From assembly GCF_041886205.1 (NCBI RefSeq), contig NZ_CP169029.1: a stretch of 64,000 bases of DNA. One strand, 5' to 3'. Source of the DNA: Escherichia coli. Its GTDB lineage: Bacteria > Pseudomonadota > Gammaproteobacteria > Enterobacterales > Enterobacteriaceae. Made by a program: the position numbers. Positions 9,001 through 21,000 of this stretch are shown one piece after another (the stretch's first letter is position 1; every line of letters begins with the position of its first letter).

Positions 9001-12000
9001 AATTTGAACCGCTGCTGGACGATCTGCTGACTATTCCGGTTGCTGAAAACGCTAACTGGTCGGCGCAAGAGATCCAACAAGAGCTGGATAACAACGTGCA
9101 GGGGATTCTGGGGTACGTGGTGCGCTGGGTGGAGCAGGGGATTGGTTGTTCAAAAGTGCCGGATATTCACAATGTGGCGCTGATGGAAGACCGCGCAACG
9201 CTGCGTATCTCCAGCCAGCATATCGCCAACTGGTTACGTCACGGTATTCTGACCAAAGAACAGGTGCAGGCGTCGCTGGAGAATATGGCGAAAGTGGTTG
9301 ATCAGCAAAACGCTGGCGATCCGGCTTACCGTCCGATGGCGGGGAATTTCGCTAACTCGTGTGCTTTTAAAGCTGCCAGCGATTTGATCTTCCTCGGCGT
9401 GAAACAGCCAAACGGTTATACCGAACCGTTATTACACGCCTGGCGTTTACGCGAAAAAGAAAGTCATTAATAGCGTCAAAAAAGCCCCGGCAAGTTTTAT
9501 TGTCGGGGCTATGATAGTAACTGCGGTAGTACATTTATCCCGGAAATAACCGGAGCGATTATCAGGGTTTAACAATATTAAATACCCGTAGCGCATTACT
9601 AGCGGGCCTAAAACAACAATATGGACATCTTAACGATACTCTGCGCCTGCGTGTGCGGAACAGAAACCCTTACCCGATATACTTGTTATGCCAGAGGTAG
9701 CAATTGCGTTAGCGGCGTACTGTTGCTGTAAAGTATAACGTCTATATTTTACAGTTCAGTCCTCTTTTGCTTATTACAACCTTAAGTATATCAAGCATAT
9801 AAAGATAATAAGAGACTGAACAATATGGTTACCTGGACCCAAATGTATATGCCAATGGGAGGACTGGGGCTATCCGCTCTGGTCGCCCTGATCCCGATAA
9901 TATTCTTCTTCGTTGCACTCGCGGTATTACGTCTGAAAGGACATGTCGCTGGAGCAATAACCCTTATATTATCTATCCTGATTGCAATATTCGCCTTTAA
10001 AATGCCGATTGATATGGCATTTGCTGCTGCGGGCTATGGCTTTATTTATGGATTATGGCCAATTGCGTGGATTATTGTCGCGGCGGTGTTCCTGTATAAA
10101 TTAACCGTTGCCAGCGGGCAGTTCGATATTATCCGCAGCTCGGTTATCTCCATCACCGACGATCAGCGTTTGCAGGTGTTACTGATTGGTTTCTCCTTTG
10201 GTGCGTTGCTGGAAGGAGCGGCTGGCTTTGGTGCTCCGGTGGCGATTACCGGTGCGCTGCTGGTGGGCCTGGGCTTCAAACCGTTATACGCGGCGGGGTT
10301 GTGTCTGATTGCCAACACTGCGCCAGTGGCGTTTGGTGCGTTGGGCGTGCCGATTCTGGTCGCCGGTCAGGTAACGGGAATCGATCCGTTCCACATTGGC
10401 GCAATGGCGGGACGCCAGTTACCGTTCCTGTCGGTTCTTGTGCCGTTCTGGCTGGTAGCAATGATGGACGGCTGGAAAGGGGTGAAAGAGACGTGGCCAG
10501 CGGCGCTGGTTGCTGGGGGAAGCTTTGCTGTCACTCAGTTCTTTACCTCTAACTATATTGGTCCGGAACTGCCGGATATTACTTCGGCGCTGGTGAGTAT
10601 CGTCTCACTCGCTTTATTCCTTAAAGTCTGGCGGCCGAAAAATACCGAAACGGCAATCAGCATGGGGCAATCCGCAGGTGCGATGGTGGTAAATAAGCCA
10701 TCTTCTGGCGGTCCCGTGCCTTCAGAATATAGTCTGGGGCAAATCATTCGTGCGTGGTCACCGTTTTTAATCTTAACGGTGCTGGTCACCATCTGGACCA
10801 TGAAGCCGTTTAAAGCGTTATTTGCTCCGGGCGGCGCGTTTTATTCACTGGTGATTAATTTCCAGATCCCTCATTTGCATCAACAAGTGTTGAAAGCGGC
10901 ACCCATTGTCGCCCAACCAACGCCAATGGATGCGGTGTTTAAATTCGACCCTCTCTCGGCTGGCGGCACCGCTATTTTTATTGCGGCGATTATCTCTATC
11001 TCCATCCTCGGTGTTGGGATCAAGAAAGGTATTGGCGTCTTTGCCGAAACGCTAATTAGCTTGAAGTGGCCGATACTGTCGATTGGCATGGTGCTGGCGT
11101 TCGCCTTCGTCACCAACTATTCTGGCATGTCCACCACGCTGGCGCTGGTACTGGCAGGTACAGGCGTGATGTTCCCGTTCTTCTCACCGTTTCTCGGCTG
11201 GCTGGGCGTATTCCTTACCGGCTCGGACACCTCCTCTAACGCCCTGTTTGGTTCACTGCAATCGACCACGGCGCAGCAAATCAACGTCTCTGACACTCTG
11301 CTGGTGGCAGCAAATACCAGCGGCGGCGTAACTGGCAAGATGATCTCCCCGCAATCTATCGCCGTGGCCTGCGCCGCGACGGGCATGGTGGGCCGGGAAT
11401 CTGAACTGTTCCGCTACACCGTGAAGCACAGTCTGATTTTTGCCAGCGTTATCGGCATTATCACGCTGTTGCAGGCGTATGTGTTTACCGGGATGTTGGT
11501 AAGTTAATAGAATAGTTATGCCTGACGTTAATACAAACCCAGTCTATCAGACTGGGTTTGTTAGTATTTCCGATATCAGACAGGGAAAATGCCTGGTCAG
11601 AAATGGGGCGTAATTCGGTTTTCTCAAAAAAGTAAAAAACGCCTTGTGGGCGGGGGATTATCTTACGACATGTAATTTGTTCCATACTTTTAAACTCCCC
11701 ATTGTTATGAAGTAAAGGCGTTATCTTTTTATCCGTTCAAACTTTAGCTCAAATTTGTAGCATGCAGATTCCGGTATTTTTCCTGATACCAGAAAAAAGT
11801 CACTGGAGGAAAGGTTGTGATAAAAATCACAAATTAAGTCAGGTTACTGGAGATAAAGTCTGCAACAGAGAATTATCGTAGTCTGTGTACCTCAACCAGT
11901 ATTTTAAAGGCTCTGTTACATGGAAGAAAACACAAGGCAGCGTACAGAAAATTATATTTCAGCAAAAAACCAGCATCCCGCCTGGATACTCCTTGCCACT

Positions 12001-18000: not shown

Positions 18001-21000
18001 CCCGACTGTTAGACGTGCGGTTTTCAGGAGAAGCCAGCGAGCAGGGATTAACAACTTTTCTTGATGCTTTTGATGAGTCCAGTCACTGGGTTTTAGTTGT
18101 ACCATTATCACCCGGCTTACTTCCTTTTAAAAAATGCCGGGTAACAACGGCGGAACTGGCAGAAACAACATTACCTGCGTCGCAAGTACTGGTGGTTGAA
18201 AATGAGCAGTGTCTGCATCATCTTCCAGCATTATCTGACACTATCGCGATTTTAGGCTGTGGCCTGGACGTGCAATGGCTATCCAGTTCTGTTCTGGATG
18301 AAAAACGCGTTGCTTATTGGGGGGACATGGATAGCTGGGGATTACTGATGCTGGCGAGAGCCAGGCGCTGTCGTCCGACGCTTGATGCCCTGCTCATGAA
18401 CCGTGAGTTGTTTGAGCAGTATGCCAGTCATAGCGCCGTTCCAGAACCGGTCATAGCGAAGGAAGCTGTACCTGATGGCTTGCTTAACGAAGAGGCCGAT
18501 TTTTATCGCTACTTAACCCGTTTACCGTGTGGTCGTCTGGAGCAGGAGTTTTTGCCAGTGGGGATTGCGGAAGAGGTGCTTCTCAGGTGGGGAAAAGAGA
18601 GTTAAAAAAGTCATGCTTGCTCTGGAAGGTTATTTACGCGGTATTTTGTAGTGGTTGTTGCGAAAGTCTGCGTTGATGGTCCTGATACCTTACCGGGTAG
18701 AGGGACTTTCCATCAGTCAGTTTAGATACTGTGGCAACTGTCGCCTTTAGGTGGACAAATGCATAAATTATTAAACTATTAAATTTCTTGTTTTCAGGCA
18801 GCAGAGAGAAGGTATATCAGAGGGTACTGAGGTGTATAAACGTCACGAACATCCGTGAAAAGGCGAAAAAAACCAGCCAATAGATAATGCTTTGCAATGG
18901 CCAGAAATCTACCGTAGCCAGAAAGTGAAAAAGCCCCGCTTTGCAGCGAGGCCTTATGAATAGTGGTGCCGGACTCGGAATCGAAGAATGCTTCTATCAT
19001 GTTGATATTATTTTATTTTGTTTGGTTTGGTGAAATATGTACCCTCTTTTGTACCCGCAGTCCCTTTTGATATCGAAAGGGAATCAAACTCGGGGTCAGG
19101 CTGAGAGCACAGAAGGAAAGTGCCTGGCTATTATATCGTTAATTCTGTCAATCAGCTCCAGCCTTTTGAAAGTGATGTGTGCAGATCCACCCTTCTTAAA
19201 GTATTTAATGATGAACATCTCATCTTCATAGCGTCCTTTACCCTGAACGGACTGTATGTGGTCATCCAGATTAATGGTGATATTCCCTCGGTTGTCGGGG
19301 ATCGGTTTACCGCTGAGCAGATGCAACATTCTTTCCAGGTCAGCCAGGCGATCTGCCTGCATTCCACTGATAAGATGAAATCTATGGTCACCCCCGTTTT
19401 TGCAACACTGATTTTTGATTAATGGTTGGCTTGCTTAAATCTATCCGGCGTCTCTGTGGGCAAGGATGCCCGCGCCCCGATGAGTTCCGCACCTGATAAT
19501 CCTAAAAATCCCCTCGGCTTCAGTGAGCCATTTCATCTGTTAGGTTTTTAATCAGGTCGATTTGCCGTTCATGTCATCAATAATCAGTCTTCGCAAAACC
19601 AGAAAGGTAACTTGTATCTTATTGTTTAAAATAAACTAATTGAGTTATATCAGCATCTATATCAGGCCTGATATTCTTTTTTCTGAGTAGTGATTGCCCA
19701 GGCAATTCGAGCCAGTTTATTTGCCAGAGCGCAGGTAACCACATTCGAATGCTTCTTGTTGAGTTGCTCCCGAACCCACTCAGCAAGTTTTCCATGCTTG
19801 CGTTCAAGTCGCATTATGAATGAGCGGGCACACTGAACCAGTAACCGGCGTAAATTTTTATCACCTCGCTTACTGATACCCAACAGAGTCGATTTTCCTC
19901 CAGTGCTATACTGCCGGGGAACAAGTCCTGTGGAAGCTGCAAAATCCCTGCTGCATGAGAACTGTTTCCCGTCACCAAGTTGCGACGATAGTAAGCTGGC
20001 AGTAATCGGACCAACACCAGGAATTGTCATAATGCGCTGAGCGGTATCATCAGCGTTGATTGACTGACTTAATTCTGATTCCAGCTCTGCTATTTGCTCA
20101 ACAAGGTAAAAGTAGTGGGTATGCAACCTCACCAAAAGGCGGCTCAGATATTCGGGGATTTCGTGTTCAGCCAACACGAGAGACAACCGTTTTATTACAG
20201 CATCACCTATCGGCAGGCTGATTCCAAATTCCAGCAAGAAACCGTGGATCTGGTTGGTTGTTTTCACTTTATCTCTGATGAGCGATTCTCTGACCCGGTG
20301 TAACGCCCTCATGGCCTGCTGGGTCTCAGTTCTTGGCTGGACAAAACGCATTGATGGTCGTGAAGCCGCTTCGCATATGGCTTCTGCATCAACAAAATCA
20401 TTCTTATTACTTTTGACAAACGGGCGAACGAACTGTGGAGAAATCAGCTTAGTTTCATGCCCAAAATCAGAGATACAGCGAGCCATAAAGTGTGCACCCG
20501 CACAGGCTTCCATTACAACAACTGAGGGCGGACATGTCGCCAGAAACTGCATCAGTTTAGTACGGGTAAATTTTTTACGCAGAAGAGCCTTACCAGACTT
20601 GTCTTGACAATGAATGTGGAAGGAGTGCTTTCCGAGATCGATACCAATAAGTGTGATGTTCTGCATGATGGTCTCTCCGTTAAAGGGATTTACCTTAACA
20701 GCGTACTGCTGTTAAGGTGGGGGTGACCATATCATTATCCCCACTGGTCCCATCTCACCAGATTGTTGACGATAATTTTACTGCCAAATTTACAGGGTGA
20801 GTTGGTTTTGTAATCCCAGCTCAGCCCTTTGAAGACGTTGATCACTCCCCGTTCAAACACTTCATCTTTGTTCTGGTGCAGTTGTTCAAATGTGCTCAGA
20901 ATGTTCGCTTCGCTGATTTCCGGAAAATTATCATATTCCAGTGACCTGGACCTGACTGAGGTGGAGCAGATAACGTCCGTATTCTCGTTGACCACTTCCG

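What the first reader, a model, noticed from the sequence alone, without database searches (positions are those of the whole stretch)
11920..18605. Four-gene SMC-type operon after glcA with the architecture of a type I Wadjet (JetABCD) anti-plasmid system
Seen in sequence: four co-directional genes of 498, 249, 1095 and 382 aa with coupled junctions (jetA stop to jetB ATG 6 nt; jetB/jetC ATGA overlap at 14168-14171; jetC stop to jetD ATG 1 nt). The third protein is an SMC/Rad50-like ABC ATPase (Walker A GPTGSGKTT, signature GSGGEKE, Walker B TIILDEAF, long coiled coils). The fourth carries Toprim-like acidic motifs (ENEQC, WGDMDSW). Established knowledge: the order kleisin-like (DUF3375), KITE-like (DUF4194), SMC-like, DUF2220/Toprim defines Wadjet, reported to restrict plasmids by recognising and cleaving small circular DNA. 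Inference: this is an intact, probably functional defence operon.
Basis: partly seen in the sequence, partly recalled or inferred. Interest (0 to 1): 0.85.

Follow-up and report, generated by a model that had tools for sequence, protein, structure and literature searches.

The report
Known E. coli Wadjet anti-plasmid operon
The four genes after glcA are an intact copy of the E. coli JetABCD (type I Wadjet) plasmid-cutting defence system, 98-99.6% identical in protein to the strain GF4-3 system that has already been purified, tested and solved by cryo-EM, so the reading is right but the system is not new.

Summary
The one slip is that the jetA-jetB spacer is 5 nt, not 6.

All four proteins match the PADLOC type I models JetA1, JetB1, JetC1 and JetD1 end to end (E 1e-272, 1e-116, 0, 4e-193). 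They also match Pfam DUF3375, DUF4194, AAA_29 with SbcC_Walker_B, and DUF3322 with JetD_C.

It is already known. The proteins are 99.6, 98.0, 98.7 and 99.0% identical to JetABCD of E. coli GF4-3 (PDB 8as8, 8bfn, 8q72). That system sits at the same glcA-pheV locus and is the published model for ATP-dependent, loop-extrusion-triggered cleavage of circular DNA under about 100 kb. The catalytic residues JetC E1022 and JetD E248, D290 and D292 are conserved.

Side findings:
- jetC DNA occurs in only 8 of 5,426 complete E. coli genomes.
- At least 3 of those 8 carry a jetA W206* nonsense allele. One of them hosts four plasmids, including 34-kb and 7.8-kb ones.
- 16 further genomes keep only jetD remnants.
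- RefSeq splits the intact jetC into two partial features.

Activity of this particular allele is inferred, not tested.

The parts
11533..11561 (+). Terminator-like hairpin (13 pairs) just after the glcA stop at 11507. It marks the upstream boundary and argues that jetABCD is not simply read through from glcA.
   Evidence: consensus scan only; sequence read
11508..11919 (+). 412-nt AT-rich (about 43% GC) glcA-jetA intergenic region, presumed to hold the jet promoter. No convincing sigma-70 match and no Rfam family were found.
11920..13416 (+). jetA: kleisin-like subunit (DUF3375), 498 aa, intact. The W206 codon TGG at 12535-12537 is the site of the TAG nonsense allele seen in other strains.
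   Evidence: JetA1, E 1.3e-272, residues 1-498; DUF3375, 3.4e-106; PDB JetA 8q72/8as8; 99.6% to GF4-3
13422..14171 (+). jetB: KITE/MukE-like subunit (DUF4194), 249 aa.
   Evidence: JetB1, 1.2e-116; DUF4194, 6.5e-28; 98.0% to GF4-3
14168..17455 (+). jetC: SMC/MukB-like ABC ATPase, 1095 aa, with no internal stop. Walker A is at 43-51, the signature motif at 984-990 and Walker B at 1017-1024 (E1022).
   Evidence: JetC1, E 0, 1624 bits; AAA_29 + SbcC_Walker_B; PDB 8as8 JetC, residues 1-1095; 98.7% to GF4-3
17457..18605 (+). jetD: Toprim nuclease subunit (DUF3322 N-terminal domain + JetD_C), 382 aa, with E248, D290 and D292 present.
   Evidence: JetD1, 4.4e-193; PDB 8q72 JetD(E248A), residues 1-382; 99.0% to GF4-3
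18930..18955 (-). Terminator-like hairpin on the minus strand. In relatives it lies just downstream of the minus-strand tRNA-Phe gene. It closes the jetD-pheV spacer.
18964..18985 (-). 22-nt fragment of the 3' end of tRNA-Phe (pheV) with a 1-nt deletion. This is the point where similarity to GF4-3 ends and a genomic island begins, so it marks the downstream boundary of the conserved jet locus.
   Evidence: GF4-3 has the whole tRNA here; no tRNA found anywhere in the window

Best explanation
Window 11920-18605 is an intact chromosomal type I Wadjet operon, jetABCD. It is the orthologue, at the same glcA-pheV locus, of the experimentally characterised E. coli GF4-3 JetABCD system.

The mechanism below is taken from the GF4-3 work and inferred for this allele. 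JetA (kleisin), JetB (KITE) and JetC (SMC ATPase) form a dimer-of-dimers motor that loads on DNA and extrudes it using ATP. On a small circular molecule, the two oppositely oriented motors consume nearly all the DNA and stall against each other. This traps a bent U-shaped residual segment. A JetD Toprim dimer binds that state and cuts both strands. Circular plasmids up to about 100 kb are destroyed, while the chromosome and linear DNA are spared.

Shown here: gene content, order, intactness, family membership, conservation of the catalytic residues, and near-identity to the tested proteins. Inferred: that this allele is expressed and active.
For: There are four intact, translationally coupled ORFs. 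All four give full-length matches to the PADLOC type I models JetA1, JetB1, JetC1 and JetD1. Pfam gives DUF3375, DUF4194, AAA_29 + SbcC_Walker_B, and DUF3322 + JetD_C.

The proteins are near-identical to the solved chains 8as8, 8bfn, 8q72 and 9qx* named JetA, JetB, JetC and JetD. Identity to the GF4-3 chromosome-encoded proteins is 99.6, 98.0, 98.7 and 99.0%, with 65 synonymous and 25 non-synonymous codon differences. The flanks are the same: glcA upstream and pheV downstream.

JetC E1022 and JetD E248, D290 and D292 are conserved. The paper on GF4-3 JetABCD reports that the E1022Q and E248A mutations abolish plasmid loss and cleavage (bioRxiv 10.1101/2022.10.04.510915). All 14 JetC substitutions lie at residues 283-933, between the two head-domain Pfam matches. 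The mechanism comes from bioRxiv 10.1101/2023.11.03.565488.
Against: No expression or activity data exist for this allele. The consensus scan finds no convincing promoter in the 412-nt region upstream of jetA, and its hit counts equal the shuffled expectation. There are 25 amino-acid differences from the tested proteins, including JetD S80, where all six compared genomes have P80. The published in vivo tests used arabinose-induced expression in K-12, not native expression. Closely related copies have decayed by nonsense mutation or deletion in other strains, which shows the locus is dispensable.
Confidence: 0.93

Rival explanations
1. The operon has the sequence of JetABCD but is functionally silent or attenuated in its native host. 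Possible causes are no active promoter, H-NS-type silencing of the AT-rich upstream region, or the lineage-specific substitutions. It would then confer no plasmid restriction in practice and be on its way to decay.
For: No promoter stands out upstream of jetA. The upstream region is AT-rich at about 43% GC. The same locus has decayed repeatedly in E. coli: the jetA W206* allele in at least 3 of 8 full-length copies, jetABC deletions, jetD stubs and an IS insertion in others. JetD P80S is unique to the window among the seven sequences compared.
Against: All four reading frames are intact over 6.7 kb, and synonymous changes outnumber non-synonymous ones 65:25 against GF4-3, which is the pattern of genes under purifying selection. 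All catalytic residues are kept. The one strain confirmed here to carry small plasmids has the nonsense allele, not the intact one.
Confidence: 0.15
2. The locus is a MukBEF/MksBEF-type condensin paralogue that organises the chromosome rather than serving as a defence nuclease.
For: JetC is SMC/MukB-like and JetA and JetB are MukF/MukE-like in architecture. There is a weak TIGR02168 SMC match (36.5 bits against a cut-off of 567).
Against: A full-length JetD with an intact Toprim triad follows jetC after a single nucleotide. The Pfam MukB match is insignificant at E 0.92. The best models are Jet-specific with E of 0. The near-identical GF4-3 complex cleaves plasmids. The operon is present in only 8 of 5,426 E. 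coli genomes, so it is not a housekeeping function.
Confidence: 0.01

Closest known systems
E. coli GF4-3 JetABCD (type I Wadjet; PDB 8as8, 8bfn, 8q72, 9qxr/9qxs; Liu et al. 2022 and Roisne-Hamelin et al. 2023, Gruber laboratory)
   Same: Same species and same chromosomal locus (glcA - jetABCD - pheV). Same gene order, lengths (498/249/1095/382 aa) and junctions. Protein identity is 99.6, 98.0, 98.7 and 99.0%, and the catalytic residues are identical.
   Different: There are 25 amino-acid substitutions: 2 in JetA, 5 in JetB, 14 in JetC (all between the head domains) and 4 in JetD. Nucleotide identity is about 98.6%. In the window a genomic island has been inserted at pheV directly downstream, whereas GF4-3 has the intact tRNA followed by yqgA and speC.
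Pseudomonas aeruginosa JetABCD (PDB 8dk1, 8dk2, 8dk3, 7til)
   Same: Same four families and architecture, with full-length alignments to JetA, JetB, JetC and JetD (E 1e-226, 2e-91, 0, 5e-147).
   Different: A clearly more distant orthologue from another genus (bit scores about 60-70% of those for the E. coli chains).
Corynebacterium glutamicum MksBEFG (MksG nuclease, PDB 8b7f)
   Same: The JetD-type Toprim nuclease is homologous (E 6.3e-10 over residues 32-373). It is also an SMC-based plasmid defence system (PMC10123090, listed).
   Different: Only remote sequence similarity. It was described under a different name (MksBEFG).
MukBEF condensin of E. coli
   Same: SMC-kleisin-KITE architecture. 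The GF4-3 papers describe substructures that resemble MukBEF.
   Different: MukBEF has no nuclease subunit and is a housekeeping chromosome organiser. Here the Pfam MukB match is insignificant and a Toprim JetD is present.

Membership tests
Type I Wadjet (JetABCD) | Four co-directional adjacent genes in the order jetA-jetB-jetC-jetD | tested here: met
   for the ORFs. for the junctions: a 5-nt spacer, an ATGA overlap and a 1-nt spacer.
Type I Wadjet (JetABCD) | JetA: kleisin-like DUF3375 protein | tested here: met
   PADLOC JetA1 E 1.3e-272, residues 1-498 against 1-498 of a 499-position model. Pfam DUF3375 E 3.4e-106.
Type I Wadjet (JetABCD) | JetB: KITE/MukE-like DUF4194 protein | tested here: met
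   PADLOC JetB1 E 1.2e-116. Pfam DUF4194 E 6.5e-28.
Type I Wadjet (JetABCD) | JetC: SMC/MukB-like ABC ATPase with Walker A, signature and Walker B motifs separated by a long arm | tested here: met
   PADLOC JetC1 E 0, 1624 bits. AAA_29 at residues 15-72 and SbcC_Walker_B at 952-1040. Motifs at 43, 984 and 1017.
Type I Wadjet (JetABCD) | JetD: Toprim nuclease with a conserved Glu and a DxD motif | tested here: met
   PADLOC JetD1 E 4.4e-193. DUF3322 + JetD_C. E248, D290 and D292 are present, as defined in the GF4-3 paper. 99% identical to solved chain 8q72_M.
Type I Wadjet (JetABCD) | Subtype I rather than II or III | tested here: met
   For all four proteins the top hits are the PADLOC type 1 models. 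The only type 2 hit is JetC2, at E 4.4e-4 over about 100 residues.
Type I Wadjet (JetABCD) | ATP-dependent cleavage of circular but not linear DNA, and plasmid restriction in vivo | not testable with these tools
   Shown for the GF4-3 orthologue. Inferred here from 98-99.6% identity and conserved catalytic residues.
MukBEF/MksBEF condensin (no nuclease) | Three-gene SMC-kleisin-KITE set with no Toprim/MksG partner | tested here: not met
   A full-length JetD follows jetC after 1 nt. The Pfam MukB match has E 0.92.

The most novel reading that the evidence does not exclude
The glcA-pheV Wadjet locus may be a natural experiment in E. coli. Intact alleles (this window, GF4-3, CX08/CX12, wlxctx60) could mark strains that exclude small circular plasmids at native expression. 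The jetA W206* allele and the deletion or stub variants could mark lineages in which loss of Wadjet opened the way to plasmid acquisition. FHI_NMBU_11, which is W206*, carries plasmids of 114, 109, 34 and 7.8 kb. If this held across many genomes, it would be population-level evidence that chromosomal Wadjet shapes plasmid carriage in a major pathogen species.
Probability: 0.2. Interest if true: 0.4.

Novelty: already known. Interest (0 to 1): 0.12.

Why it matters
For discovery it matters little. This is the E. coli JetABCD system on which the current mechanistic model of Wadjet was built: loop extrusion, motor stalling, then Toprim cleavage of circular DNA. For annotation it is useful. RefSeq names none of the four genes as a defence system in the intact copies and splits jetC into two partial features. 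The operon is also rare in E. coli, with 8 of 5,426 complete genomes holding jetC DNA and about half of those copies broken. A strain carrying an intact copy is therefore a candidate for poor plasmid transformability and a natural host in which to test native-level Wadjet activity.

Tried and rejected
1. NCBIfam gave no family above cut-off for any of the four proteins. The only hits were a sub-threshold SMC_prok_B match (36.5 against 567 bits) and an SCO6880 match (19.8 against 60 bits). This library is uninformative here.

2. I first read the 832-genome match as a widespread jetD remnant beside tRNA-Phe. Gene-specific searches showed this was wrong. jetD DNA is in only 24 genomes and jetC DNA in 8, so the remaining matches must be to the flanking intergenic DNA.

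3. The promoter and terminator consensus scan of 11400-19200 gave counts equal to the shuffled expectation. It identified no jet promoter. Only the hairpin after glcA and the hairpin beside pheV are plausible signals.

4. An Rfam scan of 11400-19200 at E <= 0.1 found nothing.

5. ARAGORN found no tRNA in the whole window. Only a 22-nt 3' fragment of pheV remains at 18964-18985.

6. I probed plasmid content of host strains through neighbouring accession numbers. This was informative only for FHI_NMBU_11, which has four plasmids. The absence of an adjacent record for GF4-3, CX08/CX12 and wlxctx60 is weak evidence. For the JNEC and CFIA strains the neighbouring accessions belong to other strains' chromosomes, so nothing can be concluded.

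7. A literature search for Wadjet together with pheV or glcA found no paper.

8. I did not run structure prediction or fold search, because solved structures of 98-99.6% identical proteins exist.
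Full report
**Observation**

The ORF list shows four same-strand reading frames:
- jetA at 11920-13416 (498 aa)
- jetB at 13422-14171 (249 aa from the ATG)
- jetC at 14168-17455 (1095 aa)
- jetD at 17457-18605 (382 aa from the ATG)

I read the junctions base by base.
- The jetA stop TAA is at 13414-13416. Five nucleotides follow before the jetB ATG at 13422.
- The ATGA overlap of jetB and jetC at 14168-14171 is as stated.
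- The jetC stop TAG is at 17453-17455. One G follows, then the jetD ATG at 17457, as stated.

The mechanical ORF list starts jetB and jetD at upstream TTG codons. The ATG starts are the right ones, because the solved chains align from residue 1 with them. All quoted motifs are present: GPTGSGKTT at JetC 43, GSGGEKE at 984, TIILDEAF at 1017, ENEQC at JetD 248 and WGDMDSW at 288. The upstream genes are glcB and glcA (translations; RefSeq annotation of near-identical loci).

**What it is**

The PADLOC defence models give full-length top hits to JetA1 (E 1.3e-272), JetB1 (1.2e-116), JetC1 (E 0, 1624 bits) and JetD1 (4.4e-193). Pfam gives the following:
- DUF3375 for JetA (3.4e-106)
- DUF4194 for JetB (6.5e-28)
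- AAA_29 plus SbcC_Walker_B for JetC
- DUF3322 plus JetD_C for JetD

The Pfam MukB match is insignificant (E 0.92). NCBIfam has no model that reaches its cut-off. The refuting scenario, a condensin paralogue without a Toprim partner, is excluded by the full-length JetD.

**It is already known**

A sequence search of the Protein Data Bank returns chains named JetA, JetB, JetC and JetD from entries 8as8, 8bfn, 8q72 and 9qxr-9qxx. They align over the full length of each protein with almost no differences. The more distant Pseudomonas set (8dk1-3, 7til) follows.

A megablast against 5,426 complete E. coli genomes finds the operon in E. coli GF4-3 at 98.6% nucleotide identity. It sits in the same place there, between glcA and tRNA-Phe (pheV). 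Direct translation and comparison gives 2, 5, 14 and 4 substitutions in JetA, JetB, JetC and JetD. That is 99.6, 98.0, 98.7 and 99.0% identity. Codon differences are 65 synonymous and 25 non-synonymous.

The GF4-3 operon is the one Liu et al. recovered, expressed in K-12 and purified (bioRxiv 10.1101/2022.10.04.510915). They report that:
- it eliminated six circular plasmids but not the linear pJAZZ;
- it cleaved circular but not linear DNA in an ATP-dependent way;
- JetC(E1022Q) or JetD(E248A) abolished its activity;
- E248, D290 and D292 are the Toprim metal-binding residues.

All four of these residues are present in the window. All 14 JetC substitutions lie at residues 283-933, between the two head-domain Pfam matches.

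**How it works** (from the papers; inferred for this allele)

JetA, JetB and JetC form a dimer of SMC motor units that extrude DNA. On a small circle the two motors consume nearly all the DNA and stall against each other. This leaves a bent U-shaped residual segment. A JetD dimer binds that state and cuts the DNA (bioRxiv 10.1101/2023.11.03.565488). The upper size limit for restricted circles is about 100 kb.

Shown here: sequence identity, intactness and conservation of the catalytic residues. Not shown: expression and activity of this allele.

**Boundaries and context**

A 13-pair terminator-like hairpin at 11533-11561 follows glcA. After it comes a 412-nt AT-rich intergenic region in which neither the promoter scan nor Rfam finds anything convincing.

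Downstream of jetD, similarity to GF4-3 continues through a 358-nt spacer and a minus-strand hairpin (18955-18930). It ends at 18985, inside a 22-nt fragment of the 3' end of tRNA-Phe that carries a 1-nt deletion (18964-18985). GF4-3 has the complete tRNA there, followed by yqgA and speC.

In the window an island begins at that point. It holds an IS110-family ISSfl8 transposase, Ag43 and CP4-like small genes, and it is common in E. coli. ARAGORN finds no tRNA anywhere in the window. So the jet operon is not part of the pheV island. It lies on the core side of the attachment site.

**Distribution**

jetC DNA is present in exactly 8 of 5,426 complete genomes, always on the chromosome. jetD DNA is present in 24:
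- the 8 full-length copies;
- two strains (MB53 and W444) with 89% of jetD; in MB53, the one examined, jetABC is deleted and jetD directly follows glcA;
- thirteen with only the 3' half, as in 14EC033, where type VI secretion genes abut the stub;
- one with a tiny stub.

LHM10-1 and CP52E keep a jetA 5' stub next to an ISEc52 element. My first reading, that about 800 genomes hold a jetD remnant, was wrong. Searches corrected it.

I examined six of the eight full-length copies. FHI_NMBU_11, JNEC-KY202 and CFIAFB20190167 carry jetA W206* (TGG to TAG, at the codon equivalent to window 12535-12537). GF4-3, wlxctx60 and CX12 are intact, as is the window. CX08 and JNEC-KY174 were not examined.

FHI_NMBU_11, a W206* strain, carries plasmids of 114,161, 108,688, 34,329 and 7,769 bp. 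Small plasmids alongside a broken jetA are consistent with the published function, but this is one strain. The apparent lack of plasmid records for the intact-allele strains rests only on neighbouring accession numbers and is weak.

**Annotation artefact**

In all six RefSeq genomes examined, including GF4-3 whose JetC has been purified as a 1095-aa protein, PGAP annotates jetC as two features. One is a 156-nt partial 'ATP-binding protein' and the other a 1347-nt 'SbcC/MukB-like Walker B domain-containing protein'. About 1.8 kb between them is left unannotated. The reading frame is uninterrupted in every case.

**Verdict**

The system is already known, and interest is low. The remaining uncertainty is only whether this allele is expressed and active in its native host.

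Noticed in passing
window 12535-12537 (jetA codon 206, TGG); loci L012, L014, L015: Three of the six full-length copies examined (out of eight in complete E. coli genomes) carry a jetA W206* nonsense allele (TGG to TAG): FHI_NMBU_11, JNEC-KY202 and CFIAFB20190167. The window keeps TGG. FHI_NMBU_11 hosts four plasmids of 114, 109, 34 and 7.8 kb. Intact-allele strains show no plasmid record at adjacent accession numbers, which is weak evidence.
   Followed up: partly
window 14168-17455; L001 10669-13956 and the equivalent regions in L002, L012-L015: RefSeq/PGAP splits the uninterrupted 1095-aa jetC into a 156-nt partial 'ATP-binding protein' and a 1347-nt 'SbcC/MukB-like Walker B' CDS, leaving about 1.8 kb unannotated. 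It does this even in GF4-3, whose JetC structure is solved. This is an annotation artefact, and none of the intact copies is named as Wadjet.
   Followed up: yes
window 17457-18605 and relatives (L003, L004, L005): The glcA-pheV interval shows several decay states across E. coli: jetABC deleted with jetD left directly after glcA (seen in MB53; W444 gives the same match pattern); a 3' half of jetD abutted by type VI secretion genes (seen in 14EC033; 13 genomes keep this 3' half); and a jetA 5' stub with ISEc52 (LHM10-1, CP52E). Only 24 of 5,426 genomes keep any jetD DNA.
   Followed up: partly
window 18964-18985 and onward to about 30000: pheV is reduced to a 22-nt 3' fragment with a 1-nt deletion, and a genomic island starts there. 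The island holds an ISSfl8 IS110-family transposase at 19662-20666 (minus strand), CP4-like DUF4942/DUF957/DUF5983 and YeeS/T/U-like genes, and Ag43. ARAGORN finds no intact tRNA anywhere in the 64-kb window, so the other island end with the complete pheV lies outside the window or has been lost.
   Followed up: partly
window 17694-17696 (JetD residue 80): The window's JetD has Ser80 where all six compared E. coli genomes, GF4-3 included, have Pro80. The residue lies in the N-terminal DUF3322 domain. Its effect is unknown.
   Followed up: no
window 11485-11685 (minus strand): A 66-aa ATG-started ORF with GGGAG a few bases upstream lies in the glcA-jetA intergenic region and runs back across the glcA terminator hairpin. 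It is unannotated in the RefSeq relatives and is probably not a gene.
   Followed up: no
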